Shown here: in pieces, positions 12,521-38,589 of the stretch | Layout of the letters: every line of letters begins with the position of its first letter | How positions within the stretch are numbered: the first letter of the stretch is position 1 | From: Eledone cirrhosa | Lineage: Eukaryota | Length of the DNA: 64,000 nucleotides | Assembly (NCBI GenBank): GCA_964016885.1 | Contig: OZ024742.1 | Coordinates: 278,008,001-278,072,000 of the forward strand | Direction of reading: 5' to 3' | Program-made: the position numbers and the translations under genes | Notes under the pieces: generated by a model | What the model saw: only the letters and a program-made list of their open reading frames with translations | The model's database searches: none | What the model was told of the DNA's origin: nothing

Positions 12521-12537
12521 TATTATTGTTGTTGTTG

Positions 12538-12604
<67 letters not shown>

Positions 12605-12606
12605 TG
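12521..12606. repeat. (TTG/TTA)n tract, left edge of retrotransposon array
   Basis: Direct repeats. Confidence 0.95.
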
Positions 12607-13190
12607 TTCTTTGCGTCTCAGTCATTGATGTTATTTAACTGGAAAGTTTGTTGAAATGAATATAAAGCCGCTACCTGCAGCCTCAGATATTCACGACGTA
12701 TCGGAGGTTTCTTGCTGTTCCCATCAAGCATGCTTTTTGAAGTGTTCCAAAAAGCGGGGCTGGACTAATCTTCTTTAACCATCCTTGGAGACTCTTTGAG
12801 ATAGTATCTAGTGTGCCTATGACAATCGGGACGACCTTGATTGGCAGTTCCAAATCCTTTTAAACTCCCACTTTAAATCCTGGTATCAGTTAATTTTCTC
12901 CCTCTCCTTTTCTTGTACTCTCGTGTCAAATGGGCAGGCTACATCTAAAATCAGGCACGATCTTTTTTCCTTGTCCAAAACCACCCGGTCAGGCCTATTG
13001 TGTTCTAATTTTTTGTCCGTCTGTATCCTAAAATCCCACAGCACCTTCACCTGATCGTTTTCTCTCACCGACTCTGGCTTATGCTCATACCACTTCTCCG
13101 AATGTGGTAAATTGTTTACTTTGCATAGATGCCAGTGGATCACCCTGCCTATCACAACATGTCTCCAGCCTTTATAGTGAGTCTGGGCTA
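12607..13190 (-). mobile_element. R4/Dong-type non-LTR retrotransposon, 5'-truncated copy A
   Basis: RLE motifs VLWDFRIQTD..HNRPD..LDVACP..EKEREK; same 3' UTR as the other copies; flanked by (TTA)n. Confidence 0.9.
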
Positions 13191-13224
13191 TTATTATTAT
13201 TATTATTATTATTGTTATTATTAC

Positions 13225-15904
13225 TCTTTGAGTCTAAGTCATTGATGTTAGTTAACTGGAAAGTTTGTTGAAATGAATATCAAGCCACTACCTGCGGCCT
13301 CTGATATTCAGGACGTATCGGAGGGTTCTTGCTGTTCCCAGCAAGCATGCCTTTTGAAGCGTTCCAAAAAGCGTGAAGGGGCCAATTTTATTTAACCATC
13401 CCTGGAAACCTTTTGAGATAGTACCTAGTGCGCCTATGACAATCGGGACCACTTTGACTTCATGGCAGTTCCAAATCCTTTTTACCTCCCACTTTAAGTC
13501 CTGGTATCGGTTAATTTTCTCCCTCTCCTTCTCTTGCACTCTCGTGTCGAATGGGCAGGCCACATCCACAATCAGGCACGATCTTTTTCTTTGTCCACAA
13601 CCACCACGTCAGGTCTATTGTGTTCCAGTTTCTTGTCCGTCTGTATCCTAAAATCCCACAGCACCTTCACCTGATCGTTTTCCATCACCGACTCTGGCTT
13701 ATGCTCATACCACTTCTCAGAATGTGGTAAATTGTTTACTTTGCATAAGTACCAGTGGATCACCCTGCCCATCACATCATGTCTCCAGCCCTTATAGTGA
13801 GTCTGGGCTAGGTGTTTACACTCGGATACAATGTGAGCCACAGTCTCCTCTCTCTCTCCACAGATCCTGCACAGTGGGCTAGCCTCCTCCTTGTAAATAT
13901 GGTGTTTCAACCACTTCGTTTTGAGGGCCTGCTCCTGCGCAGCCATTAACATTCCTTCTGTAGCCTTTTTAAGGTCTCCTCTTTTCAACCAGTTCCATGT
14001 CTGTGGATCTCTGAATTCAGTTTTCTCAAAGAAGGTACTATGAAGGGATTTTACTTGAAGGCTGCTCTTTCTACTTGATGATATTTCCTCCTTGGACATC
14101 CCCTGGTCTATTGTCCCCTCCTTCAGTACAGTTCTGAGCATTGGCTCCTTACTATCAGTCACGTATTTGTGTAGGTTGTTTTTCTCCATCTGAACACAGT
14201 CCTCTATGCTGATAAGACCTCTTCCACCTTCAGATCTCCTTAAGTAGAGTCTATCGACATCACTCCTCTTGTGGAACATGTAGATAATCAATAGCTTCCT
14301 AGTCTTCCTATCCATTTCTTTTTGCTCAGCAACATTCCATCTCAGAATTCCCGCACTGTACCTAATAATAGACACAGCTCGGGAATTTACTGCACTTATG
14401 GCATTCCTACTGTTCAGATGTGACTTTAGTACGCTCGTTACTCTCCGAATGTATTCAGTTCTTATCAATTCCTTCATTTTTTTTGTTCTTGATGTCATCA
14501 GCCTCCAGAACACCCAAATACTTGTATCCTTTTTCAGAGTCAATTTCCTTTATCATCTCACCTGTTGGTACCTGGATTCCGTTACTTCTGCTCAATGTAG
14601 CCATCTTCATCACAAGGACTCCACACTTACTAATACCAAATTGCATACATATATCATTGCTGAAAATACGGACAGTGTCAACAAGCACATCCAACTCCTT
14701 CTCACTCTTCTCGAAGAGCTTAAGTTCGTCCATGAAGAGGAGGTGACTGATGGTAAGCCCTCCCTTTTCCAACCTGTATCCTGCTCTCACTTTTCGCAGT
14801 ACACTGGTCAGGGCATCAGGGCAAGGACAAACAACAGAGGGGACAGACTATCTCCCTGGAAGATACCTCTCTTGATCTTCACGCTTCCCAAGGGTTCTCC
14901 AGTTGATGTTAACTCTGTTTGCCAGGACTTCATACTTTCGCCCAACAACTGTCTGATGTTATCTGCCACCTTGAAGATCTCCAGGCTTTTGGTGATCCAA
15001 GAATTAGGCACCATGTCAAATGCCTGTTTGTAGTCTATCCATCCCATGGCAAGACCAGTGTGTCTCCTCTTGAAAATCCTCATTACCATCTTATCAATAA
15101 GTATCTGGTCCTTTGTACCACGTGACTTCTTTCGGCATCCTTTCTGTTCGACCGGTAACAAGTTGTTTGTGTGGAGGTGATTATAGATTTCCTCAGACAT
15201 AATGCTTGTCAACAGTTTTCACATTACGGACAGACATGTGATAGGTCTATAGTTGGTAACATCATTACCCTTGATTCGGTCTTTCATTATCAGAACTGTG
15301 GTACCTTTTGTCAACCACTCTGGTACCTCACCGGACATCAAGCAGTCATTGAACATGGTTGTCAGTTTCGGGTGGAGGGATGTTATATTTTTAATCCAAT
15401 ACCCCTGCACACCATCTGGGCCTGGTGATTTCCAGTGGCTTAGTTTTTTGGCCTGCCCCTTAAGAGTTTCAACTGTGATACTCAAATCAGTTTGTTGGTG
15501 TGCCTGTTCACTAATCTCCTTCCGTACTGTCTCAATCCACACTGCCTGTCATTATGTTTAACATCCTGCTCCCATATTCCTCTCCAGAATGTTTTAGTTT
15601 GTTCCGCCTCAGGGATCAAGTCGTTGCCTCTTTCTTTCCCTTCAAGCTGTCCAAACAGCATTTTCTGGTTGTTGTCGAACATGCGGTTCTGTCTATACTG
15701 ACTGACTGTTCTCGTATCGCTTGATTTTTGCACTCTTTGTTACAATGCGTTGCTTCAGTTCCTCAATGATAATATTTAGCTTTTTCCTGCTAGTTTTGTA
15801 CTTTATTTCCAGTCTATTTTTAGTGTCTATGTTTTTTAGTGTCCCATTCAGTAGGGACTCAAGCTTTCCAATGTCATTTCTCATTTCCCTCATTTGACCA
15901 CTCA
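13225..15904 (-). mobile_element. R4/Dong-type LINE, 5'-truncated frameshifted copy B
   Basis: RT ([46 protein letters not shown]), CCHC (CRICGEREETVAHIVSEC), RHD and PD-D/ExK RLE motifs. Confidence 0.92.
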
Positions 15905-15908
15905 TTAT

Positions 15909-16304
15909 TGTTCTTCGAGTCTCAGTCATTGATGTTAATTAACTAGAAAGTTTGTTGAAATGAATATCAAGCCACTACCTGCGGCCTCAGATATTCAGGA
16001 CGTATCGGAGGGTTCTTGCTGTTCCCAGCAAGCATGCCTTTTGATGTGTTCCAAAAAGCGGGGCGGGGCCAATTTTCTTTAACCATCCCTGGAAACCTTT
16101 TGAGATAGTACCTAGTGCGCCTATGACAATCGGGACCACTTTGACTTCATGGCAGTTCCAAATCCTTTTTACCTCCCACTTTAAGTCCTGGTATCGGTTA
16201 ATTTTCTCCCTCTCCTTCTCTTGCACTCTCGTGTCGAATAGGCAGGCTACATCCACAATCAGGCACGATCTTTTTTCCCTTGTCCAAAACCACCAGGTCA
16301 GGTC

Positions 16305-16306
<2 letters not shown>
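15909..16306 (-). mobile_element. R4/Dong-type LINE 3' fragment, copy C
   Basis: RLE C-terminus plus 3' UTR; (TTA)n at its 5' junction. Confidence 0.9.
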
Positions 16307-16335
<29 letters not shown>

Positions 16336-16345
16336 GTTATTGTTA

Positions 16346-17102
16346 TTCCTTGAATCTCAGTCATTGATGTTGGTTAACTGGAAAGTCCGTTGGATTGAAT
16401 ATCAAGCCACTACCTGCAGCCTCAGATATTCAGGACGTATCGGAGGGTTCTTGCCGTTCCAAGCAAGCATGCCTTTTGAAGCGTTCCAAAAAGCGTGAAA
16501 GGGCCGATTTTCTTTAACCATCCCTGGAAACCTTTGGAGATAGTCCCCAGTGCGCCTATGACAATCGGGATCACTTTGACTTCATGGCAGTTCCAAATCC
16601 TTTTCACCTCCCACTTTAGGTCCTGGTATCGGTTAATTTTCTCCCTCTCCTTCTCTTGCACTCTCGTGTCGAACGGGCAGGCCACATCCACAATCAGGCA
16701 CGATCTTTTTTCTTTGTCCACAACCACCAGGTCAGGTCTATTGTGTTCCAGTTTTTTGTCCGTCTGTATCCTAAAATCCCACAGCACCTTCACTTGACTG
16801 TTCTCCATCACCGCCTCTGGCCTATGCTCATACCATTTCTCAGAATGTGGTAGATTGTTTACTTTGCACAGGTGCCAGTGGATCACCCTGCCCATCACAT
16901 CGTGTCTCCAGCCCTTATAGTGGGTCTGGGCTAGGTGTTTACACTCGGACACAATGTGAGCCACAGTCTCCTCTCTCTCTCCGCAGATCCTGCACAGTGG
17001 GCTAGCCTCCTCCTTGTAGATATGGTGCTTCAACCACTTCGTTTTGAGGGCCTGCTCCTGCGCAGCCATTAGCATTCCTTCTGTAGCCTTTTTGAGGTCT
17101 CC

Positions 17103-17103
<1 letters not shown>
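16346..17103 (-). mobile_element. R4/Dong-type LINE 3' fragment, copy D (CCHC + RLE open)
   Basis: ORF 16422-17174 contains CRICGEREETVAHIVSEC, WRHD, HNRPD; flanked by (TTA)n. Confidence 0.92.
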
Positions 17104-17148
<45 letters not shown>

Positions 17149-17155
17149 GTTGTTA

Positions 17156-19607
17156 TTCCTTGAATCTCAGTCATTGATGTTGGTTAACTGGAAAGTCCGT
17201 TGGAATGAATATCAAGCCACTACCTGCAGCCTCAGATATTCAGGACGTATCGGAGGGTTCTTGCTGTTCCAAGCAAGCATGCCTTTTGAAGCGTTCCAAA
17301 AAGCGTGAAAGGGCCGATTTTCTTTAACCATCCCTGGAAACTTTTGGAGATAGTCCCCAGTGCGCCTATGACAATCGGGATAACTTTGACTTCATGGCAG
17401 TTCCAAATCCTTTTCACCTCCCACTTTAGGTCCTGGTATCGGTTAATTTTCTCCCTCTCCTTCTCTTGCACTCTCGTGTCGAAAGGGCAGGCCACATCCA
17501 CAATCAGACACGATCTTTTTTCTTTGTCCACAACCACCAGGTCAGGTCTATTGTGTTCCAGTTTCTTGTCCGTCTGTATCCTAAAATCCCACAGCACCTT
17601 CACCTGATTGTTCTCCATCAACGCCTCTGGCCTATGCTCATACCATTTCTCAGAATGTGGTAAATTGTTTACTTTGCACAGGTGCCAGTGGATCACCCTT
17701 CCCATCACATCGTGTCTCCAGCCCTTATAGTGGGTCTGGGCTAGGTGTTTACACTCGGACACAATATGAGTCACAGTCTCCTCTCTCTCTCCACAGATCC
17801 TGCACAGTGGGCTAGCCTCCTCCTTGTAAATATGGTGCTTCAACCACTTCGTTTTGAGGGCCTGCTCCTGCGCAGCCATTAGCATTCCTTCTGTAGCCTT
17901 TTTGAGGTCTCCTCTTCTCAACCAGTTCCATGTCTGTGGATCTCTAAATTTAGTTTTCTCAAAGAAGGTACTATGAAGGGATTTTCCCCTAAGGCTGCTC
18001 TTTCTCCTTGATGTTATTTCCTCCTTGGACATCCCCTGGCCTACTGTCCCCTCCTTCAGTACAGTTCTGAGCATTGGCTCCTTACTATAGGTCACGTATT
18101 TGTATAGGTTGTTTTTCTCCATCTGAACACAGTCCTCTATGCTGATAAGACCTCTTCCAGCCTCAGATCTCCTTAGGTAGAGTCTATCGACATCACTCCT
18201 CTTGTGGAACATGTTGTAGATAGTCAATAGCTTCCTAGTCTTCCTATCCATTTCTTTTTGTTCAGCAACATTCCATCTCAGAATTCCCGCACTGTACCTA
18301 ATAATAGACACAGCTCGGGAATTTACTGCGCTTATGGCATTTCTGTTGTTCAGATGTGACTTCAATACGCTCCTTACTCTCCGAATGTATTCAGTTCTTA
18401 ACAATTCCTTCATTTTTTTGTTCTTTATGCCATCAGCCTCCAGAACGCCCAAATACTTGTATCCTTCCTCAGAGTCAATTTCCTTTATCATCTCACCTGT
18501 TGGTATCTGGATCCCGTTACTTCTGCTCAACCTACCCCTCCTCATCACAATGACTCCACATTTACTAATACCAAACTACATACATATATCACTGCTGAAA
18601 ATACGGACAGTGTCAACAAGCACATCCAACTCCTTCTCACTTTTCCCGAAGAGCTTAAGATCGTCCATGAAGAGGAGGTGATTGATGGTAAGCTCTCCCT
18701 TTCCCAACTTGTATCCTGCTCTCACTTTTCGCAGCATAATGGTCAAGGGCATCAGGGCAAGGACAAACAACAGAGGGGACAGGCTATCTCCCTGGAAGAT
18801 ACCTCTATTGATCTTCACGCTTCCCAAGGATACTCCAGTTGATGTCAACTCTGTCTCCCAGGACCCCATATTCCTGCCCAGCAACTGTCTGATGTTATCT
18901 GCCACCCTGAAGATCTCCAGGATTTTGGTGATCCAAGAATGAGGCACCATGTCAAATGCCTTTCTGTAGTCTATCCATCCCATGGCAAGATCAGTGTGTC
19001 TCCTCCTGCAATTCCCCATTACCATCTTATCAATAAGTAACTGGTCCTTTGTACCACGTGACTTCTTTCGGTATCCTTTCTGTTCGTCCGGCAACAAGTT
19101 GTTTGTGTGGAGGTGATGGTAGATTTCCTCAGACACAATGCTCGTCAACAGTTTCCACATTACGGACAGACATGTGATAGGTCTATAGTTGGTAACATCA
19201 TTACCCTTGATTCGGTCTTTCATTATCAGAACTGTGGTACCTTTTGTCAACCACTCTGGCACCTCACCCGACACCAAGCAGTCATTGAACATGGCCGTCA
19301 GCTTCGGGTGGAGGGATGTTAAATTTTTAATCCAATACCCCTGCACACCATTTGGGCCTGGTGATTTCCAGTTGGTTAGTTTTTTGGCCTGCCCCTTAAG
19401 AGTTTCAACTGTGATACTCAAATCAGTTTGTTGGTGTGCCTGCTCACCGATCTCCCTCTGTACTGTCTCAATCCACCCTGCCTGGACATTATGTCTAACA
19501 TCCTGCTCCCATATTCCTCTCCAGAATGTTTTAGTTTGCTCCGCCCCAGGGATCAAGTGGTTGCCTCTTTCTTTCCCCTCAAGCTGTCCAAACAGCATCT
19601 TCTGGTT
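17156..19607 (-). mobile_element. R4/Dong-type LINE, 5'-truncated copy E (RT-CCHC-RLE, one nonsense codon)
   Basis: ORFs 18576-19643 and 17232-18548 are in the same frame, separated by a stop at ~18577; FQGDSLSP and LFMDD RT motifs; flanked by (TTA)n. Confidence 0.93.
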
Positions 19608-19847
19608 ATTATTATTATTATTATTATTATTATTGAATGCCATGGTTGACGGAGGCTCGGCTCTGTAAGGTATAGTAATTTTTAACCGTTAAAACAATTG
19701 TAAATTGTTTAAAACTTGAACCAAATTGTTGATAAAGACACCCTCCTCCTCGTGAGAGGGGTCTTTCTGTCCGTTGTTTGGCCCTTCGGGGTTAAATAAC
19801 CAGTTATTGGGGTTTTGTACCCAAAATTTCATTTTAAACAAAAAAAC

Positions 19848-21478
19848 ATGGCTACCAAAAAGAAATTTCATACGTCACTCCCACTCATTCCGTCTTCTTC
19901 TTCCTCAATCATCACTACAGCAGAGAGAAGATTGTCTCTCTCCCTCCCTTCTTTAAATGTGTCTCTCTCCCTCCCTTCTCTTTCGCAAGTGACGAAAGAA
20001 AAGAAAAGTCTCGTGCAAAGCGTGCAAGGTTTCTCCACGACGACGACGACAGCGACGAAACAGGTGTGCGGGAAATACGAAAAGCCTTGGGGTCTGTGTG
20101 GCAGCGGAAAACGCACATCACCCGAGGCAAAAAATATGCCACCGTAGACGTACTTTTTGCCACACCCCAGGAGGCAAAGGCCCAATCAGTAGTGACCCTA
20201 AGGAGCGAGGAAATGGTGTTGGTGCCCTCCTACTGTGGGCAAAAAATTGTGAGGGTCAAACTGACCCACGTCCCCCCCGGAATGACCCCTTCTTGGCTGG
20301 CCGCGTCTGTCCTCGTCGGAATCGAGGACAAAACAACTGTACTGCAAGTACAGAAAAAAGTAAGAGAAGATTGGGTCGGCTCCTCCATTGAGATGCTAAT
20401 CCAAACCAACCAGGAGTGCATCGAAGCTATCCCGGATGTGATAGACTTCGATAACGGCACTCAACTGCCCATAAGTGTTGAGGGCAAACGCCCGAAATGC
20501 TTTCGCTGTGGATCGAAGACTCACCTCAGGGCCTTCTGCAACGAGAAGACCCTGAGAAAGGAGAAAACCCCCCTCCTTCCGAATCCGGCTCCACGGCTAC
20601 CAGCAACAGGACAAGCGGCAACCAGGAACGATAGGCCCGTGGCACCCATACCCACTCCACGGAAATCAAAAACAGCAGCAGCAGTGGAAATACTAACAAC
20701 AACAACAGCAATACCAAATGCAGCTGCAACAGAGACTCCAGTGCAAACATCACCAACAACAACAAGTGAAAGAGTGGAGTTGGTACCCCTCCCCGACCTC
20801 ACAGAATCAGACATGGAGTGTGAGGTGGGAGAGAGATGGCAAAAGGTCGTAAGAAGGCACAAACGCAGAAGCAGCGCATCGTCGCCTTTGAAAAGTGAGG
20901 AAAGAAATGAGAAAAGGGTAAAGTCTACTGCAAAGAGACCCACAGCAGCAACAACACCAACACCATCACCACCCACACTAGCGCCACCATCACCACCGGC
21001 GACAACCCCACCGCCAACAACACCTTCAACACCACCACCACAAGCACCAACATCGCAAACACAACAACAAAACACACACACCCAGCAACAACGACAAGAA
21101 AATAGCAGAACCACACCCCACCCCCAGAAAAACAAATGCACGGCAATAAATACACACAACAAGAAACTAATGACTTACATAATTGAACACACAGACATTT
21201 CACAACAGGACTACATAATACCAGCACCAATCAAAACGCCAACTAACATAAGACTGCTAAAAATAGCACAGAAACAATACACAAATATTAAAACGAAATT
21301 CCCCAACGCAGTTGGTGATTTCAGGGACCTAGGAGGAACCATCAATCGAAGAGTATACTCAGACATTCTCTTAGAAGAGCCGACGACCAGCCGAAGGGAC
21401 GATTCAACGGTCCCTTCACCAGACGATCAAGTGAAAAGGGATGTAAAAACCATCCCTCCTCTACCAAAAGTACGGTAA
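19848..21478 (+). pseudogene. ORF1 (gag-like, CCHC knuckle) of family A copy 1, frameshifted by a ~466-bp internal deletion
   Basis: ATG at 19848 (MATKKKF); the segment present at ~25680-26140 in copy 2 is missing; downstream frame 20066-21478 has CFRCGSKTHLRAFC. Confidence 0.85.
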
Positions 21479-21513
21479 GTGGTCTTTCCCATCTTTTCCA
21501 CTCTATTTTAAAC

Positions 21514-25443: not shown

Positions 25444-27541
25444 ATGGCTACGAAAAAGAAATTTCATACGTCACTCCTACTCATTCCGTCTTCTTCTTCC
25501 TCAATCATCACTACAGCAGAGAGAAGATTGTCTCTCTCCCTCCCTTCTTTAAATGTGTCTCTCTCCCCCCCTTCTCTTTCGCAAGTGACGAAAGAAAAGA
25601 AAAGTCTCGTGCAAAGCGTGCAAGGTTTCTCCACGACGACGACGACAGCGACGAAACAAGTGTGCGGGAAATACGAAAACCCAGTTCATTCGTCTGACGT
25701 CAGGAATAATAGCAGTAGCAGCCGTAATAACAACAGCAACAGTGACAATGAAAACAACAGTAGCAGCCGCAACAGCATCACCAGCAGCATAAACAACAAC
25801 AGCATTAGCAGCAGCAACACCAACAACAACCACAGCAACAGCGGCGGAGGCAGTAGTCGTAGTACCTGCAGCAACAACAAAAGTACCAGCAGCTCTGACG
25901 ACAACAACAACAGCAGAGAAAAACCAATATCATTTGCAGGTATTGCGAAAAACTTGGAAACAATCCTCATAACAAATGAGGAATTAGAGGAAGCGAAGAA
26001 GGTGGTGACAAAGAACGGACACCGAGCAATCTGCAAGGCAGCGGAAAAATTTTTCGAAACCCAAGAGCACTGTACGGTCACGTACCGTACAGTAAGTACA
26101 AAATCCCGTAGGGTGGAAAGAGCCACAGAGGCCCAAATACAAAAAGCCTTGGGGTCTGTGTGGCAGCGGAAAACGCACATCACCCGAGGCAAAAAATATG
26201 CCACCGTAGACGTACTTTTTGCCACACCCCAGGAGGCAAAGGCCCAATCAGTAGTGACCCTAAGGAGCGAGGAAATGGTGTTGGTGCCCTCCTACTGTGG
26301 GCAAAAAAATTGTGAGGGTCAAACTGACTCACGTCCCCCCCGGAATGACCCCTTCTTGGCTGGCCGCGTCTGTCCTCGTCGGAATCGAGGACAAAACAAC
26401 TGTACTGCAAGTACAGAAAAAAGTAAGAGAAGATTGGGTCGGCTCCTCCATTGAGATGCTAATCCAAACCAACCAGGAGTGCATCGAAGCTATCCCGGAT
26501 GTGATAGACTTCGATAACGGCACTCAACTGCCCATAAGTGTTGAGGGCAAACGCCCGAAATGCTTTCGCTGTGGATCGAAGACTCACCTCAGGGCCTTCT
26601 GCAACGAGAAGACCCTGAGAAAGGAGAAAACCCCCCTCCTTCCGAATCCGGCTCCACGGCTACCAGCAACAGGACAAGCGGCAACCAGGAACGATAGGCC
26701 CGTGGCACCCATACCCACTCCACGGAAATCAAAAACAGCAGCAGCAGTGGAAATACTAACAACAACAACAGCAATACCAAATGCAGCTGCAACAGAGACT
26801 CCAGTGCAAACATCACCAACAACAACAAGTGAAAGAGTGGAGCTGGTACCCCTCCCCGACCTCACAGAATCAGACATGGAGTGTGAGGTGGGAGAGAGAT
26901 GGCAAAAGGTCGTAAGAAGGCACAAACGCAGAAGCAGCGCATCGTCGCCTTTGAAAAGGGAGGAAAGAAATGAGAAAAGGGTAAAGTCTACTGCAAAGAG
27001 ACCCACAGCAGCAACAACACCAACACCATAACCACCCACACTAGCACCACCATCACCACCGGCGACAACCCCACCGCCAACAACACCTTCAACACCACCA
27101 CCACAAGCACCAACATCGCAAACACAACAACAAAACACACACACCCAGCAACAACGACAAGAAAATAGCAGAACCACACCCCACCCCCAGAAAAACAAAT
27201 GCACGGCAATAAATACACACAACAAGAAACTAATGACTTACATAATTGAACACACAGACATTTCACAACAGGACTACATAATACCAGCACCAATCAAAAC
27301 GCCAACTAACATAAGACTGCTAAAAATAGCACAGAAACAATACACAAATATTAAAACGAAATTCCCCAACGCAGTTGGTGATTTCAGGGACCTAGGAGGA
27401 ACCATCAATCGAAGAGTATACTCAGACATTCTCTTAGAAGAGCCGACGACCAGCCGAAGGGACGATTCAACGGTCCCTTCACCAGACGATCAAGTGAAAA
27501 GGGATGTAAAAACCATCCCTCCTCTACCAAAAGTACGGTAA
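25444..27541 (+). pseudogene. ORF1 of family A copy 2 (~698 aa when repaired)
   Basis: ATG 25444; +1 A at ~26303-26309; TCA>TAA at ~27029; N/S-rich linker, ISFAGIAK, CCHC knuckle. Confidence 0.85.
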
Positions 27542-27576
27542 GTGGTCTTTCCCATCTTTTCCACTCTATTTTAAAC

Positions 27577-30500
27577 ATGACCTCACTCAGAATAGGCAGC
27601 ATAAATGCGCGTGGCTTGGGGTCGTCATGGAAGCAGGGTCACCTGCTCAACGACCTCAGGTCACTAAACATAGATGTAGTGGCCATCAGCGAGACCAGAA
27701 TCTCCGAAGCACGGGCCTTCGCACCGATCTTCGGCGGCTACGATGTGTACGCATCTCCCAGCCGTCCTGGATCGGGTGGAGGAGTTGCTGTGCTTTTTCG
27801 GAGAGGTTTGGATCTCGCCATACGGGCCATCTTCCTGGACCCAGAGGGTAAGCTGGTGGTGCTGGACGTGACCAGCGGAGACGGGCAAGCTTTCAGGCTA
27901 GTGGCCGTCTATGCCCCGACAGGAGCAGGGCGGCCTGATTTCTTCCGGCGTCTGGAGACCTTTCTTGGAACGTCCCGCTCTTTAGTGTTAGTGGGCGACT
28001 GGAACGGGATCTTAGATGCACACTGGGACTGTATGGGATTAGCGGATAGGGGTGGAGGGTGCAAGAGCCTCACCAACCTGCTCAGGCGTTTTGAACTGTC
28101 TGACAGGTACCGATTGGATTTCCCGAATGTGCCAATGTGGACTTGGACAAACCGCATAGGGTCATCCACATCATATCTAGATAGAGTATTTTGTAGGGAA
28201 ATAGATAGGTCTAGCATAGGCTGTCCACAATTCAAGATAGTCAGCTACACGGACCACAAATTCGTGACCTGTGTGCTTGACTTAGATAGGCTTCATAGAC
28301 GAGGACCCGGCTACTGGAAGCTAAACTCGTCCTTACCAGCGCGCAAGGCCTACAGAGACCGGATTAGCGAACTAGTTAAGCGGGCGTTGACGGGGGCCAT
28401 CGTCAACAACAAGTGGTGGTTTGCTCTGAAAAGAGCGATTAGAATAGAATCGATTAGGTTTAGTAAGGCTTTAGCAATAGAGAAAAATAGAGCAGAGGGA
28501 GAACTAGTTAGAAAATTAGACGAGGCGCTTAGCAAAGGCATTGCGACCGACGTGCTTGCGGCGAAATTGGTCCTTGACCAATTCTTCAATACAAAGCACG
28601 AAGGCTGCGTTGTCAGAGCTAGGGTGCGTGCTCTCAGACACGAGGGAACGAAAGCCGTTCAATGGGCCCGAGTGGCGGAGGCGCGTCGTGGCAACAAAGC
28701 CACGATCCGGTCTTTGGTGGACCACGACGGGCGCATGCTACTCGATCCCGGGCAAATGTGTGAAGCTTTTCAGCGACAGTTCGCTCAGCTGTTCGGGGGC
28801 AGCGGGGGGCCGGGTAGAGTGATGGACTTTAGTGTCTACCTCGACGGACTGCCGCGGCTCTCGGCCACTGAGGCGAAGTGTTGCGAAAAGCCGATAACAG
28901 CCGCTGAAGTAAGGGAGGCAATGACTGGCTGCACAAGGGGTAAATCGCCTGGTTTGGATGGTCTGCCCTATGAACTTTACGTACAGATGCCAGACTTGTT
29001 CGGAGGCCTCTTGGCGGACGTCTACTGCAACTGGCAACAGAACGGGAGAATTCCCAGTTCTGTGAGCCGAGGAGCGGTGGCACTGCTGAGAAAGGATCCG
29101 AACAAGGGGGATAACATAGACAATTTCCGGCCCATAACTCTGCTAAACACAGAGTTCAAGATTTTGGCCAAGGTGCTAGCAAAGAGATTGGCGCTTGTCG
29201 TTGGTGGTCTGGTGGGAGAGGCGCAGACATGCGCCATTCCCGACAGATCCATCCACGACAACCTCCACCTCATGCGATACATCATAGAGAGGGTAGCTAA
29301 GGAACCTGGCACGGGTGGGTCCTTGATCAATTTAGATCAGTCGAAAGCTTTCGATAGGGTCGACCATCGTTACCTAGCGGCAGTCCTTTGGGCCCGTCTT
29401 CAGAGGCTGGATCGCTGCCATGCACAGCGACATCTGCTCTGTGGTGAGAGTGAACGGTCACCTGTCGGAACCGTTCAACATCATGCGCTCGGTCCGCCAA
29501 GGATGTCCCATCTCGTCCCTCTTGTACGTATTGACTCTCGAGCCATTACTGCACAAACTGGAGACGTTGAGGGGAGTCCCGCGCGAACTAGGATGCTGAA
29601 GATCCGTGTCAGCATATGCGGACGATGTCACCGTAGTGGTGTCGAACGCCAAACACATCGAGGCGATCGGCACTACACTAAGAGAATACGAAGCGGTGAC
29701 AGGAGCAATGATCAACCAGGAAAAGTCGGTGGGCCTGCAGCTCGGCACCTGGAGAGGCAGGTCCATGCCGTCCAACAGCGTCGTCGGGTGCTGGACGGAC
29801 GGACCGGTTAAATTGCTAGGGGTCTGGTTCGGTCCGGACCTCCAGGCGGACAAAAACTGGGACGAGGTGACGAGCAGGGTGGCTTCTCTCACCCAGAAAT
29901 GGGCCGAGAGGAAGCTATCCCTGAAAGGTCGAGCGGAGGTGGCTAACGCGTACATCGCGTCTGTCATCTGCTACCGCCTAACCGTCGTACCTTGTCCTAA
30001 GCCCCGCCTGACTGCGCTGGAGCGTTTGCTCTTTCGCTTTTTGTGGAAGGGACGTGCTCCGATGGTCAGGCGGTCCATCTGTTGTCAACACCCGCTACGT
30101 GGAGGGCTGGGCATGCCGTGGCTGATGATGCGCAGGCACGCGCTCAGGCTACGACATCTCCACCTCTTCCTCGACGGTAATCAGGTGTGGTCGCCCTTGC
30201 TAGACGCGTTTTTCCCCAGCTCGTTTCCTTGACGGAGCTGCAGTCCTGGGTCAAGCGAAGACCGAGAGGGAGCGCCTGGAGACTGGAATGTCTTCAGGCG
30301 CTCACAGCCCTCGACCAATCGGGCAATGTGATCGGTGGAAACTCCACCTCGGCGTTCTATAGAGGATTAGTGGAGGGGAAGAGCGACGACGTACTTGGGG
30401 AAACTCTAGGCGTCGACGAAAATCAACTAGCCAATCTCTTCGGAAGAACTTACGGGCCAGGGCCTATGGACAACTTCCAGAAATCTCTGGCCTGGCAGTG

Positions 30501-30981
30501 CTACCGAGGAGCCTTGCCAGTTCGGGATAAACTCTACAGGCATGGAGGTGCCGTCAGCCGGGCATGTCCGAGATGCGCGCAGGGCGACGAAACCGTCCTG
30601 CACGCACTCGTCCAGTGTCCGAAAATTGCTGACTTGTGGGTTTATGTCGAACACCTGCTGTCGCGTTTAGGACGGATCCAGCTATCATCTGAGTCCATCG
30701 TGAGGATTGCCCCGCCCTCCTCCTTTAGCCGGGAAGGGCAGGCAGTTTTTATCTGTCTGGTGGCCATGGCGAAAGAGATAGTATGGTGGACACGTTTGAA
30801 AGGGCTGAAGACGAGCACTTACCTCTTCGGTGATGCTCTGATTGACTTTTTCAAATTTCATTTGAAAAGGAAAATCAGAGTAGAGAGGGAAGTGCTCTCT
30901 TCCCAGCATTTTATTGAAAGATGGGTGAGAGAAGCAAGAATGGCCCGAGTGAATGGGCCGACTCTGAGTATATATCTGTAA
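27577..30981 (+). pseudogene. ORF2 of family A copy 2 (APE-RT), frameshifted
   Basis: 14-bp deletion at ~29387, stop at ~29597, 1-bp deletion at ~30196 relative to copy 1. Confidence 0.9.
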
Positions 30982-31240
30982 ACTAAAGGTGGAAAACTGG
31001 GAGAGGGCACTTGCCTTGGTGGTCAGGGTCATTGTGGCTTTTTACTGGGCTTTCTCCACAAATGTCCCTCCGAAGTCTCCCCCCTATTGGGGAATTTTTC
31101 ATTGTTATTTTCATTGTTATTTTTGTTACATCCTCTGTTTTTGTTTTTTTACACGCAGAAATGCCCATTTGTACCGTCCTGCATTGTCCTGCACTGTCCT
31201 TAATGTCTACTTTATGTAAACCCTTGTGGTTAATAAAGAA

Positions 31241-31312
<72 letters not shown>

Positions 31313-31326
31313 GTTATTATTTTTTA

Positions 31327-31542
31327 GGGCGGTGGATTGACAGTATCGGTAGAGGGTCGGACACCATTCTTTGCAGCATAGAGTTACGTCTCTTTAGGAT
31401 CTGTTTTAAAATCCCGCCGAGGTTAACTTTGCCTTTCATACTTACGGGATCGATAACGTAAAGTACCAGTCACGTACTGGGGTCGATTTAATCGACTTTC
31501 TCCTCCCCCAAAATTGCTGGCCTTGTGCCTATATAAGAAACC
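31327..31542 (+). mobile_element. tRNA-derived SINE (octopus OR-like) inserted in (TTA)n
   Basis: Degenerate A/B-box head (GGCGGTGGATTGACAG...TTTTAAAATCCCGCC), central GCCTTTCAT...CGATAA..AAGTACCAGT...ACTGGGGTCGAT, tail CCTTGTGCCTATATAAGAAACC; further copies at 46630, 46955 and 52164. Confidence 0.8.
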
Positions 31543-31569
31543 ATTATTATTATTATTATTATTATTATT

Positions 31570-34500
31570 GAATGCCATGGTTGACGGATGCTTGGCTAGT
31601 AAGGTATAGTAATATTTAACCGCTATAACAATTGTAAGTTGTTTAAAACTTGAACCAAATTGTAGATAAAAACACCCTCCTCATCGTGAGAGGGGTTTTC
31701 TGCCCGTTATTTGGCCCTTCGGGGTTAAATAACCGATTATTGGCGGTTTGTGCCTAATATTCATTTTAAACTGTAAAAAAAAAAACATGGCTACAAAAAG
31801 AATTTTCACAAGTCTTTCCGTCTTCTTCCTCAATCGTTATTACATCAGAGAAAAGATTGTCTCTCTCCCTCCCTTCTCTAAATGTGGTGTCGCCTCTTTC
31901 GCAACCGACGCCATTAAGAAAAAGAAAAATATAGTTTCTGGTAGCTTTCACCAAGAGAACGTGCATACCGTAGAGCATTTCTCAACGACGACGACAACGA
32001 CGAAAAATGAGTGCGGTAAATAAGGAAAGCCATTGCATTCGTCTGACGTCATGAAGAATAGCAGCAGCAGCAGCCGTAATAACAGCAGCAGCAGCAACAG
32101 TGACAAGGAAAACACTAGTAGCAGCCGCAACAACAACAGCAGCAGCATAAAACAACAACAGCAGCAACAGCAACAACAACAGCAGCAACAACGACGGCGG
32201 CGGTCGTAGTACCAGCAGCAACAACAAAAGTAACAGCAGCTCTGACGACAACAACAACAACAACAAGAAAGAAAAACCAATCTCGTTTGCCGGTATCGCA
32301 AAGAACCTGGAAACCATCCTTATAACAAATGAGGAATTACAGGAAGCAAAGAAGATGGTGACGAAAACCGGACACCGAGCAATCTGCAAGGCAGCCGAAA
32401 CATTTTTCGAAACCCAACAACACTGTACGGTCACGTACCGTAAAGCAAGCACAAAATCCCGTAGGGTTGAAAGAGCCACAGAGGCTCAAATACAAAAATC
32501 CTTAGGGTCTGTGTGGCAGTGGAAAACGCATATCACCCGAGGCAAGAAATATGCCACCGTGGAAGTGCTTTTTGCCACACCCCAGGAGGCAAAGTGACCC
32601 TAAGGAGCGAGGAAATAGTGTTGGTACCCTCCTACTGCGGGCAAAAAATTGTGAGGGTCAAACTGACCCACGTCCCCCCCGGGATGGCCCCTTCTTGACT
32701 GGCCGCGTCTGTCCTCGTCGGAATCGAGGACAAAACAACTGTACTGCAAGTACAGAAAAAAGTACGAGAAGATTGGGTCGGCACTTCCATTGAGATGTTA
32801 ATCCAAACCAACCAGGAGTGCATCGAAGCTATCCCGGATGTGATAGACTTCGATAACGGCACTCAACTGCCCATAAGTGTTGAGGGCAAACGCCCGAAAT
32901 GCTTTCGCTGAGGATCGAAGACTCACCTCAGGGCCTTCTGCAATGAGAAGACCCTGAGAAAGAAGAAAACCCCCCTCCTTCCGAAACCGGCTCCACTGCT
33001 ACCAGCAACAGGACAGGCGGCAAGCAGGAAGGATAGGTCCGTGGCACCCATACCCACCCCACGGAAATCAAGAACAGCAACAGCAGTGGAAGTATTAACA
33101 ACAAAAACAGTAATACCAACTTCAGCTGCAACAGAGACTCCACTGCAAACATCACAACAACAATAAATGAAAGAGTGGAGCTGGTACCCCTCCCCGACCT
33201 CGCAGGAATCGGACATGGAGTGTGAGGTGGGAGAGGGATGGGAAAAGGTCGCGAGAAGGCACACACGCAGAAGCAGCGCATCGTCGCGTTCGAAAAGGGA
33301 GGAAAGAAATGAAAAAAGGGTAAAGGCTACTGCAAAGAGACTTACAGCAGCAACACCACCGACACCATCACTACCCACACTAGCACCACCATCACCACCG
33401 GCGGCAACCCCACCGCCAACAACACCTTCAACGCCACCACCACAAGCACCAACATAGCAAACACAACAACAAAACACACACACCAAGCAACAACGACAAG
33501 AAAATAGCAGAACCATACCCCACCCCCAGAAAAAGAAATGCACAGCAATAAATACACACAACAAGAAACTAATGAGTTACATAATTGAACACACAGACAT
33601 TTCACAGCACGACTACATAATACCAGCACCAATCAAAACACCAACGAACATAAGACTGGTAAGAATAGCACAGAAACAATGCACAAACATTAAAACGAAA
33701 TTCCGCAACGCAGTTGGTGATTTCAGAGACCTAGGAGGGACACTCAACCGGAGAGTATATTCGGATATACTCACAGAAGAGCCGACGACCAGCCGAAAGC
33801 AAGATTTAACGGCCCCTTCACCAGACGATTAAGTGAAAAGGGATGGAGAAACCATCCTTCCTCTACGAGAAGTAAGGTAAGTGGTCTTTGCCAACTTTTC
33901 CATTCCATTTCATGACCTCACTCAGAATAGGCAGCATAAATGCGCGTGGCTTGGGGTCGTCATGGAAGCAGGCCACCTGCTCAACGACCTCAGGTCACTA
34001 AACATAGATGTAGTGGCCATCAGCCAGACCAGAATATCCGAAGCACGGGCCTTCGCACCGATCTTCGGCGGCTACGATGTGTACGCACCTCCCAGCCGTC
34101 CGGGATCGGGGGAGGAGTTGCTGTGCTTTTTCGGAGAGGTTTGGATCTCGCCATACGGGCCATCTTCCGGGACCCAGAAGGTAAGTTGGTGGTGCTGGAC
34201 GTGACTAGCGGAGACGGGCAAGCTTTCAGGCTAGTGGCCGTCTATGCCCCGACAGGAGCAGGGCGGCCTGATTTCTTCCGGTGCCTGGAGACCTTTCTAG
34301 GAACGTCCCGCTCTTTAGTGTTAGTGGGCGACTGGAACGGAATCTTAGATGCACACTGGAACTCTGTGGGATTAGCGGATAGGGGAGGAGGGTGCAAGAG
34401 CTCACCAACCTGCTCAGGCGTTTCGAACTGTTTGACAGGTACCGATTGGATTTCCCGAATGTGCCAATGTGAACTTGGACAAACAGCATCGGGTCATCCA

Positions 34501-35856
34501 TATCATATCTAGGTAGAGTATTTTGTAGGGAAATAGATAGGTCTAGCATAGGCTGTCCACAATTCAAGATAGTCAGCTACACGGACCACAAATTTGTGAT
34601 CTGTGTGCTTGACTTAGATATACGTCTTAGACGCGTCCTTACCAGCGCGCAAGGCCTACAGAGACCGGATTAGCGAACTAGTTAAGCGAGCGTTGACGGG
34701 GGCCATCGACAACAACAAGTGGTGGTTTGCTCTGAAAAGAACGATTAGAATAGAGTCCATTAGGTTTAGTAAGGCTTTAGCTATAGAGAAAAATAGAGCA
34801 AAGGGAGAATTAGTTAGAAAATTAGACGAGGCGCTTAGCAAAGGCATCGCGACCGACGTACTTGCGGCGAAATTGGCCCTTGACCAATTCTTCAATGCAA
34901 AGCGCGACAGTTCGCTCAGCTGTTCGGGGGCAGCGGGGGGCCGGGTAGAGTGATGGACTTTAGTGTCTACCTCGACGGACTGCCGCGGCTCTCGGCCACT
35001 GAGGCAGAGTGTTGCGAAAAGCCGATAACAGCCGCTGAAGTACGGGAGGCAATGACGGGCTGCACAATGGGTAATTCGCCTGGTTTGGATGGTCTGCCCT
35101 ATGAACTTTACGTACAGATGCCAGACTTGTTCGGAAGCCTCTTGGCGGACGTCTACTGCAACTGGCAACAAATGGGACGAGGTGGCTTCTCTCACCTAGA
35201 AATGGGCGGAGAAGAAGCTATCCCTGAAAGGTCGAGCGGAGGTGGCCAACGCGTACATCGCGTCCGTCATCTACTACCGCCTGACCGTCGTATCTTGTCC
35301 TAAGCCCCGCCTGACTGCGCTGGAGCGTTTGCTCTTTCGCATTTTGTGGAAGGGACGCGCTCCGATGGTCAGGCGGTCCATCTGCTGTCAACACCCGCTA
35401 CGTGGAGGGCTGGGAATGCCGTGGCTGATGATGCGCAGATACGCGCTCAGGCTACGACATCTCCACCTCTTCCTCGACGGTGATCAGGTGTGGTCACCGT
35501 TTTTTCTAGACGCGTCTTTCCCCAGCTCGTCTCCTTGACGGAGCTGCAGTCCTGGGTCAAGCGAAGACCGAGAGGGAGCACTTGGAGACTGGAATGTCTT
35601 CAGGCGCTCACAGCCCTCGACGAATCGGGCAATGTGATCGGTGGAAACTCCACCTTGGTGTTCTATAGAGGATTAGTGGAGGAGAAGAGCGACGACGTAC
35701 TTGGGGAAACTCTAGGCGTCAAAGAAAATCAACTACCCAATCTCTTCGGAAGAACTTTCGGGCCGGGGCTATGGACAACTTCCAGAAATCCCTGGCCTGG
35801 CAGTGCTACTGAGGAGCTTTGCCAGTTCGGGATAAACTCTACAGGCATGGAGGTGC
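31570..35856 (+). mobile_element. Tx1-like LINE, family A copy 3 (older, multiply deleted, 3' end lost)
   Basis: Same 5' junction (ATT)n-GAATGCCATGG; many stops; internal deletions at ~34620, ~34903 and ~35172. Confidence 0.9.
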
Positions 35857-38077
35857 CCATCACATCATGTCTCCAGCCTTTATAGCGAGTCTGGGCTAGG
35901 TGTTTACACTTGGATACAATGTGAGCCACAGTCTCCTCTCTCTCTCCACAGATCCTACACAGTGGGCTAGCCTCCTCCTTGTAAATATGGTGTTTCACCC
36001 ACTTCGTTTTGAAGGCCTGCTCTTGCGCAGCCATTAGCATTCCTTCTGTAAGGTCTCTTCTTTTCAATCAGTTCCATGTCTGTGGATCTCTAAATTCAGT
36101 TTTCTAAAAGTAGGCACGCTGAAGGGATTTTTCATGAAAGTTGCTCTTTCTCCTTGTTATTTCCTCCTTGGACATCCCCTGGTCTATTGTCCTCTCCTTC
36201 AGTACAATTCTGAGCATTGGCTCCCTACTATCCTTAAGTAGAGTCTATCGACATCACTCCTTTTGTGGAACATATTGTAGATAGTCAATAGCTTCCTAGT
36301 CTTCCTATCCATTTCTTTTTGTTCAGCAACATTCCATCTCAGAATTCCCGCACTGTACCTAATAATAGACACAGCTCGGGAATTTACTGCACTTATGGCA
36401 TTCCTACTGTTCAGATGTGACTTTAGTACGCTCCTTACTCTCCGAATGTATTCAGATCTTATCAATTCCTTCATTTCTTTGTTCTTGATCTCGTCAGCCT
36501 CCAGAACACCTAGATATTTGTATCCTTCTTCAGCATCAATTTCCTTTATCATCTCACCTGTTGATACCTGGATTCCGTTGCTTCTGCTCAATTTACCCCT
36601 CTTCATCACAAGAACTCCACACTTACCAAATTGCATACATATATCATTGCTGAAAATACGGACAGTGTCAACAAGCACATCCAACTCCCTCTCACTCTTC
36701 CCGAAGTGCTTAAGTTCGTCCATGAAGAGGAGGTGACTCCCAAGGAATCTCCGCCCGATGTTAACTCTGTTTTCCAGGACTTCATACTCTTGCTTAACAA
36801 CTGTCTGATGTTATCTGCCACCCTGAAGATCTCTAGGCTTTTGGTTATCCAAGAATGAGGTACCATGTCGAATGCCCTTTTGTAGTCTATCCATCCCATG
36901 GCAAGACCAGTGTGTCTCCTCCTGAAATCCTCATTACCATCTTATCAATAAGTAACTGGTCCTTTGTACCACGGGACTTCTTTCGGCATCGTTTCTGTTC
37001 GTCCGGTAACAAGTTGTTTATGTGGAGGTGATGGTATATTTCCTCAGACACAATGCTTGTTAACAGTTTCCACATTACGGACAGACATTTGATAGGTCTA
37101 TAGTTGGTAACATCATTACCCTTGGTTCGGTCTTTCATTACCAGAACTGTGGTACCTTTTGTCAACTACCCTGGTACCTCACCTGACATCAAGCAGTCAT
37201 TGAACATGGTTGTCAGTTTCGGGTGGAGGGATGTTATATTTTTAATCCAATACCCCTGCACACCATCTGGGCCTGGTGATTTCCAGTTGGTTAGTTTTCT
37301 GGCCTGCCCCTAAAGAGTTTCAATTGTGATACTCAAATCAGTTTGTTCGTGAGCCTGTTCACTAATCTCCTTTTGTACTGTCTCAATCCACACTGCCTGA
37401 TCATTATGTTCAACACCCTGCTCCCATATTCCTCTCCAGAATGCCTTAGTTTGTTCCGCCTCAGGGATCAAGTCGTTGCCTCTTTCTTTCCCTTGAAGCT
37501 GTCCAAACAACATTTTCTGGTTGTTGTCAAACATGCGGTTCTATCTATACTGACTGACTCTGCTCTCGTATCGCCTAATTTTTGCACTCTTTGCTACAAT
37601 GCGTTACTTCAGTTCCTCTATGATAATATTTAGCTTTTTCCTCCTAGTTTTGTACTTTATTTCCAGTCTATTTTTAGTGTCTATGTTTTTTAGTGTCCCA
37701 TTCAGTAGGGACTCAAGCTTTCCAATGTCATTTCTCATTTCCCTGATTTGACCATTCAATCGTTTCTTCCACCAAGGTTCTGATCTTTCTTGTTTGTTGT
37801 TTCCTCTGGCTTTTATGCCAAGTAATTTCCTCACCGCATTTGCTGTTGCTTTGAGGATATTTTTGCACTGGTGAAGGTTCCTCGTCTCAAGGTATGGGAT
37901 GACTTTGTTTACCTTAGCTGTTGTTTCTTTTAACTTTATCCTGTCTACAAATCTTAGGTTCATAGGTTTCCCACTATCATTGTTCATTTCATCTACCACT
38001 AAGTTTAGGATATCAACCAAATATTGTCCTAGCCCGTCAGCATTCATCTCCTCAATGTTCGTATATCTTCCCTTCTC
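35853..38077 (-). mobile_element. R4/Dong-type LINE copy F (extends furthest 5', 3' end deleted)
   Basis: EPWWKKRL, KSPGPDG, WIDYKRAFD, CRICGEREETVAHIVSKC, WRHD; the segment containing QGD is deleted at ~36737. Confidence 0.9.
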
Positions 38078-38109
<32 letters not shown>

Positions 38110-38341
38110 TTATCCCAGGAAACCCGCGTATAGGAGAAATACAAAGGATAGTACTAATGGGAACTGCCCATATACTAAGGAAGATTCTGTCAATATAAGT
38201 ACATCACAAGTCTAAACACTAAAGATGCATGTGTGAGTATGTATGTTCTTCCTTGAACATGGCGGACCTTGTTGTCTCTTGAGGTCACTGGTTGTGACTT
38301 GGTGATAACTCGTATGAACATAAAGCAAGATAAATGCAACT

Positions 38342-38342
<1 letters not shown>
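38110..38342 (+). mobile_element. 3' fragment of a second R4-type RLE LINE family in (TAA)n
   Basis: IPGNPRIGEIQRIVLMGTAHILRKILSI* resembles the RLE C-terminus (LQKACLLGTARTLRYVLNI); different 3' UTR; (TAA)n on both sides. Confidence 0.7.
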
Positions 38343-38373
<31 letters not shown>

Positions 38374-38589
38374 TATTATTATTATTATTGATTTCTGTTT
38401 TCAGTTCGACATTGAGCATCTTAATTCATTTTCTACTTATCACTTTGATTTATATGTTGCTGTTGTTGTTGTTATCCTCGTTGTTTTCTTTATTGTTTAA
38501 ATACGTCATCTTCTGCCTCCTCTTCCTCATAATTATCGTCATTATTGATATTAATACTACTAACCTCAGCATGACCAATATTCATATCA

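What the first reader, a model, noticed from the sequence alone, without database searches (positions are those of the whole stretch)
12521..38390. 26-kb self-amplifying retrotransposon array inside one (TTA/TAA)n microsatellite, with two LINE clades on opposite strands
Seen: six RLE-type copies (minus), three APE-type copies (plus), one SINE and one other RLE fragment, almost all separated only by (TTA)n or (TAA)n. RLE elements have (TAA)n on their sense strand (except the 5' flank of copy F), while Tx1-like copies and the SINE have (TTA)n. Established: Dong (R4 clade) targets TAA repeats, and some Tx1 families (Kibi, Koshi) target microsatellites. Inference: two unrelated endonucleases converged on the same target from opposite strands, and each insertion regenerates target sequence, so the array keeps growing.
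Basis: partly seen in the sequence, partly recalled or inferred. Interest (0 to 1): 0.75.

Follow-up and report, generated by a model that had tools for sequence, protein, structure and literature searches.

The report
Two LINE kinds share one microsatellite
This 26-kb stretch is a real stack of eleven jumping-gene copies joined mostly by TTA/TAA repeats, with two unrelated kinds facing opposite ways; such stacks are common in this genome, likely because both kinds home to the same scarce repeat from opposite strands, a new variant of a known habit.

Summary
The stack is real: six RLE-type LINE copies on the minus strand, three APE-type LINE copies on plus, one SINE and one fragment of a second RLE family. 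Nine of 11 boundaries carry a long TTA/TAA run. It is not unique. Genome-wide, 1,657 of 1,720 APE-family 5' motifs directly follow (ATT)4 and 1 follows TAA. On contig C1, 23 of 100 APE 3' ends sit tail-to-tail with an RLE end and none lies on the same strand (0.08 expected). Each window copy tested has an equal or closer relative on another contig, which favours serial insertion over local duplication. The SINE shares the APE tail, and its duplications start at ATT, pointing to the likely nick. Three claims are not shown. 'Self-amplifying': cluster sizes fit fixed scarce targets equally well. 'One microsatellite': the right end switches polarity and no empty allele was found. The assembly: the available reads were uninformative. 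TAA-targeting Dong, microsatellite-targeting Tx1 and antiparallel sharing (TRAS1/SART1) are in print; I found no ATT-targeting Tx1-like family in print. This scan already reported the pattern at eight or more other loci of this genome.

The parts
12521..12605 (.). Left flank repeat (TTG)4(TTA)20; also the 3' flank of RLE copy A
12607..13190 (-). RLE LINE copy A, 3' 590 bp, the most diverged copy (93% to its nearest sampled relative)
13189..13223 (.). (TTA)n spacer
13225..15904 (-). RLE copy B, 5'-truncated (2.7 kb); only 8 bp of repeat separate it from C
15911..16308 (-). RLE copy C, 3' 400 bp
16305..16347 (.). (TTA)n spacer
16346..17106 (-). RLE copy D, 3' 760 bp, young (99.5% to copies on C1)
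17103..17157 (.). (TTA)n spacer
17156..19610 (-). RLE copy E, 5'-truncated (2.45 kb): RT, CCHC and PD..D-type C-terminal region, one frameshift
19606..19634 (.). (TTA)9 between two 5' ends (head-to-head), so it is the 3' tail of neither neighbour
19635..25182 (+). APE LINE copy 1 (Tx1-like): both ends present; ORF1 has a ~450-bp deletion with frameshift; ORF2 21514-24933 is open (1139 aa; endonuclease, RT, zf-RVT)
25183..25227 (.). (ATT)15 spacer
25228..31241 (+). APE LINE copy 2, full length 6.0 kb, frameshifts in ORF1 and ORF2
31241..31321 (.). (ATT)n spacer, 81 bp
31328..31543 (+). SINE of a family with 107,307 exact motif matches; 3' tail resembles the APE LINE tail
31543..31569 (.). (ATT)9 spacer
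31570..35857 (+). APE LINE copy 3, older (92.6% to its nearest sampled relative), internally deleted, 3' end missing
35854..38068 (-). RLE copy F: 5'-truncated, two internal deletions, 3' end missing; joined to APE copy 3 without repeat (4-bp overlap TGCC)
38078..38113 (.). (TAA)10: polarity switch, between the 5' ends of F and G
38114..38342 (+). 3' fragment G of a second RLE family (C-terminal peptide resembles the main RLE C-terminus), TAA on both sides
38343..38389 (.). Right flank compound repeat (TAA)10(TTA)5

Best explanation
The stretch is a stack of eleven retroelement copies, likely built by serial independent insertion into a (TTA/TAA)n site that two unrelated LINE groups both target from opposite strands. 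Shown: the RLE family carries TAA on its sense strand and the APE family ATT, genome-wide, so neighbours are antiparallel. Inferred from target-primed reverse transcription: the RLE protein primes from a nick in the TTA strand and the APE protein from a nick in the AAT strand, just before ATTAT on its sense strand, as the SINE duplications suggest. Inferred: the SINE borrows the APE machinery. Each insertion splits the run and leaves repeat on both sides through duplication, tail addition or slippage (partly shown). Long ATT runs are scarce (about 10-25 per Mb) and guild elements are of similar abundance, so insertions pile up. Later deletions fused APE-3 to F.
For: APE 5' ends: 1,657 of 1,720 exact motifs follow (ATT)4 in register; 1 of 1,720 follows TAA, and that one is a head-to-head APE pair; background 6e-5. 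In 6 of 30 sampled loci the ATT run lies head-to-head with an RLE 5' end and in 3 more against non-element DNA, so it is not just a neighbour's tail. A second APE subfamily with a different 5' half: 24 of 25 full-length copies follow 4 or more ATT. RLE: 30 of 30 3' ends are followed by (AAT)3 and none by (ATT)3; 23 of 30 5' ends, at many truncation points, follow TAA, 1 follows a compound TAA/TTA run and 6 neither (read by eye). C1: 23 of 100 APE 3' ends have an RLE 3' end within 150 bp, all tail-to-tail, 0 same-strand, null mean 0.08; cross pairs within 7 kb are 40 opposite and 3 same. Copies A-E and APE 1-3 each have an equal or closer relative on C1 than in the array. APE 1 and 2 share 0 private bases and D and E share 1. 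SINE: 16 of 30 have a duplication of 10 bp or more, 15 starting with ATT; null mean 1.1, max 5. The SINE tail matches the APE tails (shuffle p 0.007 and <0.0005) and not the RLE tails (p 0.96, 0.98). Protein groups: APE ORF2 is closest to L1 ORF2p (E 3.5e-52); the RLE ORF is closest to R2 (E 2.6e-30).
Against: Cluster sizes on C1 do not separate growth from fixed targets: -lnL Poisson 122.7 vs geometric 124.0 at a 7-kb link, and 132.1 vs 130.9 at 12 kb. Only 7 of 26 truly truncated APE copies have 4 or more ATT units at the 5' side, 11 of 26 counting short ATT-type duplications (re-sorted by hand). Two full-length APE copies (L162, L213) have only one ATT at the 3' side and no duplication of what follows, so the SINE's duplication rule does not hold for all LINE insertions. 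Four of 50 multi-element clusters mix polarity. Local duplication does occur elsewhere: L002/L003 are each other's closest pair at 99.79%, and a LINE+G unit is repeated at C1:55.44 Mb. Samples are the first hits on one contig and are biased to young copies. No nuclease was assayed.
Confidence: 0.85

Rival explanations
1. Targeting is real, but stacking reflects saturation of a small, fixed and unequal set of long ATT runs; extra runs left by insertions add little, so 'self-amplifying' is not needed.
For: A zero-truncated Poisson fits cluster sizes as well as a geometric. Only 5 runs of 6 or more units in 400 kb, 2 of them beside a LINE, against about 19,000 exact 3' motifs in 3 Gb.
Against: The Poisson fit implies 21-71 empty sites in 44.6 Mb, whereas the sample suggests about 335, though from only 3 free runs. 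The array holds 491 bp of repeat in 11 stretches. Several of the youngest copies (D, E, APE 1, APE 2) lie in the middle, between older ones.
Confidence: 0.35
2. Polarity is set by pairing of the RNA's repeat tail, (AUU)n or (UAA)n, with whichever strand is nicked, and by repeat carried in read-through transcripts, rather than by strand-specific endonucleases.
For: Full-length APE copies almost always have 5' (ATT)n while truncated ones mostly do not, and L162 and L213 lack the expected duplication; both fit repeat delivered with the cDNA. RNA-target annealing is proposed for SART1 and R1 (PMC7265360, passages).
Against: A sister APE family about 70% identical in ORF2 sits in (TATC)n in 20 of 20 loci and differs in the endonuclease loop region. 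Endonuclease swaps change target in TRAS1/SART1 (PMC7265360 passages). The two ideas are not exclusive.
Confidence: 0.3
3. The array is a local tandem or segmental duplication, or an assembly error.
For: APE 1 and 2 are 98.7% identical and D and E 97.6%. No read or contig bridging the junctions was seen (inconclusive). Duplication is seen in another array.
Against: Copies have different truncation points and deletions, belong to different subfamilies, are as close or closer to copies on C1 and share 0-1 private bases. Both flanks are single-copy.
Confidence: 0.05
4. The repeats are only 3' tails of the elements, and the copies accumulated passively in a neutral region.
For: Both families end in the repeat; the SINE usually has only 1-3 ATT units and lies outside long runs.
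Against: Head-to-head junctions at 19606-19634 and 38078-38113, and in 6 of 30 sampled loci, carry repeat that is no neighbour's tail. RLE 5' truncation points lie in TAA in most copies. Passive accumulation predicts no 23:0 polarity bias.
Confidence: 0.04

Closest known systems
Dong (R4 clade, RLE): Bombyx Dong, DongAg, DongBg, Darwinula Dong1/2 (PMC3812793, PMC7998251, PMC3774820; passages read)
   Same: Single ORF with RT, CCHC and C-terminal PD..D-type region; (TAA)n target, stated for most insects, molluscs and cnidarians; TAA on the sense strand as in the Bombyx 5' junction primer. Dong-R4 is listed as abundant and recently active in Octopus vulgaris (PMC13282606, first third of the text).
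   Different: Here it shares the target with an antiparallel APE family and forms mixed stacks. No Rfam ribozyme was found at the 5' end. Clade placement by tree was not tested.
Tx1-clade microsatellite families: Kibi (TC)n, Koshi (TTC)n, crocodilian (TTCC)n/(TTTC)n families (PMC4494074; passages read)
   Same: L1-group APE-RT-CCHC architecture, microsatellite preference, tandem insertions, a SINE with a related target.
   Different: The target is (ATT)n, with a sister family in (TATC)n; neither is listed in the passages read. The 3' end is a repeat tail, and the SINE has a short shared tail.
TRAS1 and SART1 in Bombyx telomeric repeats (PMC7265360; passages read)
   Same: Two LINE families insert into one repeat in opposite directions.
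   Different: Both are APE elements of the R1 clade (recalled) at telomeres; here one RLE and one APE family share dispersed microsatellites.
Utopia (RLE) and Keno (Tx1, APE) at U2 snRNA genes (PMC4640811; passages read)
   Same: RLE and APE elements evolved specificity for the same target in parallel.
   Different: They share the same 3' flank in a gene, so the same orientation; here the target is a microsatellite used from opposite strands.

Membership tests
R4/Dong clade | RT of the R2 group with a C-terminal CCHC and restriction-like endonuclease, no APE | tested here: met
   RVT_1 and zf-RVT, no Exo_endo_phos; best PDB hits are R2 proteins; RPDL..D motif aligns weakly to the R2 endonuclease, E 0.005
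R4/Dong clade | (TAA)n target on the sense strand | tested here: met
   30 of 30 3' ends; 23 of 30 5' ends
R4/Dong clade | Placement with Dong/R4 in an RT tree | not testable with these tools
   No named Dong or R4 reference was returned; the 120 listed homologues are unnamed or 'hypothetical'
R4/Dong clade | N-terminal SANT/Myb-like domain (PMC7998251) | tested here: inconclusive
   No Pfam hit in the N-terminus of L065; the paper needed profile-profile search, which I did not run
R4/Dong clade | HDV-like ribozyme at the 5' end (PMC3774820) | tested here: inconclusive
   No Rfam match in 6 long loci; no custom model was built
Tx1 clade | Two ORFs; ORF2 with APE, RT and C-terminal CCHC of the L1 group | tested here: met
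   Pfam Exo_endo_phos, RVT_1, zf-RVT; L1 ORF2p E 3.5e-52 vs R2 1e-21
Tx1 clade | CCHC zinc knuckle in ORF1 (feature recalled, not from a call) | tested here: met
   CFRCGSKTHLRAFC read by eye from 20498-20539; Pfam did not report it
Tx1 clade | Target preference (over 20% of flanks in one sequence type, criterion of PMC4494074) | tested here: met
   1,657 of 1,720 5' motifs; 7 of 26 truncated copies
Tx1 clade | Placement with Tx1L, Kibi and Koshi in an RT tree | not testable with these tools
   No named Tx1 reference; 'Tx1-like' rests on architecture and behaviour
SINE partnered with the APE family | Shared 3' tail with the LINE | tested here: met
   About 20 nt; p 0.007 and <0.0005 vs the APE tails, 0.96-0.98 vs the RLE tails; short, and one SINE copy tested
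SINE partnered with the APE family | Same insertion signature as the LINE | tested here: inconclusive
   SINE duplications start with ATT (15 of 16); LINE copies L193, L100 and L216 agree, L162 and L213 do not
SINE partnered with the APE family | tRNA-derived head with pol III boxes | not tested
   Rfam scan of the array found nothing above chance; SINE status rests on size, copy number and tail

The most novel reading that the evidence does not exclude
A Tx1-like lineage has radiated by switching microsatellite target (ATT in one family, TATC in a sister about 70% identical in ORF2). Its ATT family, a partner SINE with over 100,000 copies, and Dong-like RLE elements form a guild that divides the two strands of one repeat and grows arrays by making new target with each insertion: a natural series for mapping how endonuclease loops and RNA tails choose strand and repeat.
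Probability: 0.5. Interest if true: 0.6.

Novelty: new variant of a known kind. Interest (0 to 1): 0.42.

Why it matters
How microsatellite-targeting LINEs choose their site is described as not well understood (PMC3812793, passage). Here one genome offers thousands of young copies, two opposite polarities on one repeat, a sister family with another repeat, and SINE duplications that mark the likely nick, so strand and register are directly testable. It would also explain where a share of the LINE load sits in this probably octopod genome (host guessed from SINE and repeat make-up, recalled). Each ingredient has a precedent, and this locus adds one more example to a pattern the scan has already recorded.

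Tried and rejected
DNA search of the own genome with the APE 5' end returned nothing, even the window's own copy, because common words are skipped; exact patterns were used instead. first scored 26 copies as truncated at position 2266; they share one upstream sequence and are a second subfamily with another 5' half, 25 of them full length. Before the 7-of-26 count I dropped those 25, three rows of other families (L159, L196, L206), one duplicate (L186), one internally deleted copy (L187), the 14 full-length rows and 2 rows that ran off. Reads: three contig sets of one sample and one RAD-seq run gave no record bridging the left junction (repeats are skipped) or the APE-3/F junction (list cut), so they are inconclusive either way. 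No paralogous or haplotype empty site exists in the assembly. Rfam found only chance hits. Protein searches gave no informative names. The test of self-amplification by cluster size was not decisive. Literature: 7 searches found no ATT-targeting Tx1 family and no mixed Dong/Tx1 microsatellite array; Kojima and Fujiwara 2004, the original Dong paper (not held) and Repbase entries could not be read and may hold it. No supplementary files were opened; the target figures of PMC4494074 and PMC4640811 may bear on novelty. PMC9115989 was seen only as a search listing. No structure prediction was run.
Full report
Observation. Self-comparison and annotation give eleven elements between 12607 and 38342: RLE copies A-E on the minus strand, APE copies 1 and 2, a SINE and APE copy 3 on plus, RLE copy F on minus, and fragment G of a second RLE family on plus. 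Eleven stretches of TTA/TAA, 491 bp in all, border them. The B/C stretch is only 8 bp. The APE-3/F boundary has no repeat: both elements lack their 3' ends there and overlap by 4 bp, which reads as a later deletion. At the right end the repeat changes to (TAA)10 around G and ends in (TTA)5. No such run of 4 or more units lies elsewhere in the window.

What the elements are. APE copy 1 has an open 1139-aa ORF2 with Exo_endo_phos, RVT_1 and zf-RVT, closest to L1 ORF2p among solved structures; its ORF1 is deleted and frameshifted, and copies 2 and 3 carry frameshifts. ORF1 has a CCHC knuckle (read by eye). The RLE family has RT, CCHC and a PD..D-type C-terminus and is closest to R2 proteins. Full-length copies elsewhere are about 4.95 kb; all six window copies are 5'-truncated. 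The names Tx1-like and Dong-like rest on architecture and target; no named reference was available for a tree.

Genome-wide test of flanks. Exact motif counts are 1,720 APE 5' ends, 9,501 APE 3' ends, 9,850 RLE 3' ends and 107,307 SINE cores. Of the 1,720, 1,657 follow (ATT)4 in register and 1 follows TAA, against a background of 6e-5. A second APE subfamily with another 5' half has 4 or more ATT before 24 of 25 full-length copies. APE 3' ends are followed by (ATT)3 in 24 of 30 and 51 of 60 overlapping samples. RLE 3' ends are followed by (AAT)3 in 30 of 30 and by (ATT)3 in none; their 5' ends follow TAA in 23 of 30, a compound TAA/TTA run in 1 (L075, an exception like F) and neither in 6 (read by eye). 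Against a strict rule, only 7 of 26 truncated APE copies have 4 or more ATT units at the 5' side (re-sorted as listed under Tried and rejected). Samples are the first hits on contig C1 and favour young copies.

Polarity and stacking. In C1 up to 44.6 Mb, 23 of 100 APE 3' ends have an RLE 3' end within 150 bp, all tail-to-tail and none on the same strand; uniform placement gives 0.08. Of 50 clusters with two or more ends, 46 keep one polarity and 30 are mixed. Four regions chosen for their clustering hold stacks of similar make-up, one of about 32 kb, so this locus is typical.

Serial insertion or duplication. Copies A-E and APE 1-3 each have an equal or closer relative on C1 than in the array; APE 1 and 2 share no private base among 26-30 others, D and E share one among 19. 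Nearest identities run from 93% (A, APE 3) to 99% or more (D, E, APE 1, APE 2), so young copies lie between old ones; G at the right edge (97-99% to others) is an exception. In other arrays the neighbour was the closest relative in 1 of 9 pairs, and one LINE+G unit is repeated, so duplication happens but is the minority. Reads could not confirm the assembly, and no empty site exists in the assembly.

Mechanism. In target-primed reverse transcription (established knowledge) the nicked strand is complementary to the RNA. The RLE family would therefore prime from the TTA strand and the APE family from the AAT strand; this is inferred, not assayed. The SINE gives the register: 16 of 30 copies have a duplication of 10-18 bp, 15 beginning with ATT (null mean 1.1), and only 2 of 30 lie in runs of 4 or more units. 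Its tail matches the APE tails and not the RLE tails. The APE machinery thus likely needs only a short ATTAT, while full-length LINE copies end up in long runs. LINE copies L193, L100 and L216 show such duplications; L162 and L213 do not, which leaves room for repeat carried by the RNA. A sister APE family in this window (53597-59421, about 70% ORF2 identity) has 311 5' motifs, and 20 of 20 sampled follow (TATC)n-type repeat.

Is it self-amplifying? Insertions do leave repeat on both sides. Whether that speeds further insertion is not shown: Poisson and geometric models fit cluster sizes equally. Long runs are scarce, 5 of 6 or more units in 400 kb, so saturation alone predicts stacks. The Poisson fit implies fewer empty sites (21-71) than the sample suggests (about 335, from 3 runs), a weak lean towards growth or unequal targets.

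Comparison with what is known. Dong targets (TAA)n, including in molluscs (PMC3812793 and PMC7998251, passages), with TAA on the sense strand (PMC3774820, passages). Kibi, Koshi and crocodilian Tx1 families target other microsatellites (PMC4494074, passages). TRAS1 and SART1 share a repeat in opposite directions (PMC7265360, passages). Utopia and Keno show RLE/APE convergence on one site (PMC4640811, passages). Octopus papers list Dong-R4 and L1-Tx1 as abundant without target analysis in what I read (PMC13282606, first third and passages; PMC8967140, passages). Passages of PMC3747384, PMC4758252 and PMC5786205 named no Tx1-SINE pair in cephalopods. Seven searches found no ATT-targeting Tx1; Repbase and the 2004 survey were not readable. 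Eight earlier notes of this scan describe the same pattern elsewhere in this genome; they are not independent support.

Verdict. Real, and a new variant of a known kind: the ATT target for a Tx1-like family and the antiparallel RLE/APE sharing of a microsatellite appear unreported, each ingredient has precedent, and the locus itself is one of many. Interest 0.42.

Noticed in passing
window 53597-59421 (+): Full-length sister Tx1-like LINE inside (TATC)n; 311 5' motifs genome-wide, 20 of 20 sampled follow TATC-type repeat.
   Followed up: yes
window 59503-60600 (+): 5' part of a further LINE-like element directly after the TATC tail of the sister copy; its ORF1 start resembles the Tx1-like ORF1 by eye.
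   Followed up: no
window 61000-62000: Degraded RT-like stretch with a YIDD motif, possibly Penelope-like (by eye).
   Followed up: no
window 62361-62688: About 330-bp palindrome at 94% identity, possibly a MITE or foldback.
   Followed up: no
L160 and 25 other loci on C1: A second APE subfamily shares ORF2 and the 3' end (about 95%) but has an unrelated 5' 2.2 kb, which suggests an ORF1/promoter swap that kept the ATT target.
   Followed up: partly
L276:1420-1560 (G000:C4): The only APE 5' end after TAA is a head-to-head pair of APE copies sharing one short run.
   Followed up: partly
L177, L180, L004, L008, L013, L169, L213: APE copies often sit at compound (CTT)n(ATT)n repeats; two truncated copies abut (CTT)n directly.
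   Followed up: no
L201: A truncated APE copy follows a short (CCCTAA) telomere-like stretch.
   Followed up: no
G000:C1:55,441,800-55,455,600 (L219-L220): A unit of APE LINE, 590 bp unassigned and G fragment occurs twice in tandem: local duplication or 3' transduction.
   Followed up: partly
window 46631-47039 and 52168-52547: Four older SINE copies outside long TTA runs.
   Followed up: partly
window 934-4136: C-rich stretch with several long open frames; four were scanned and had no Pfam hit.
   Followed up: partly
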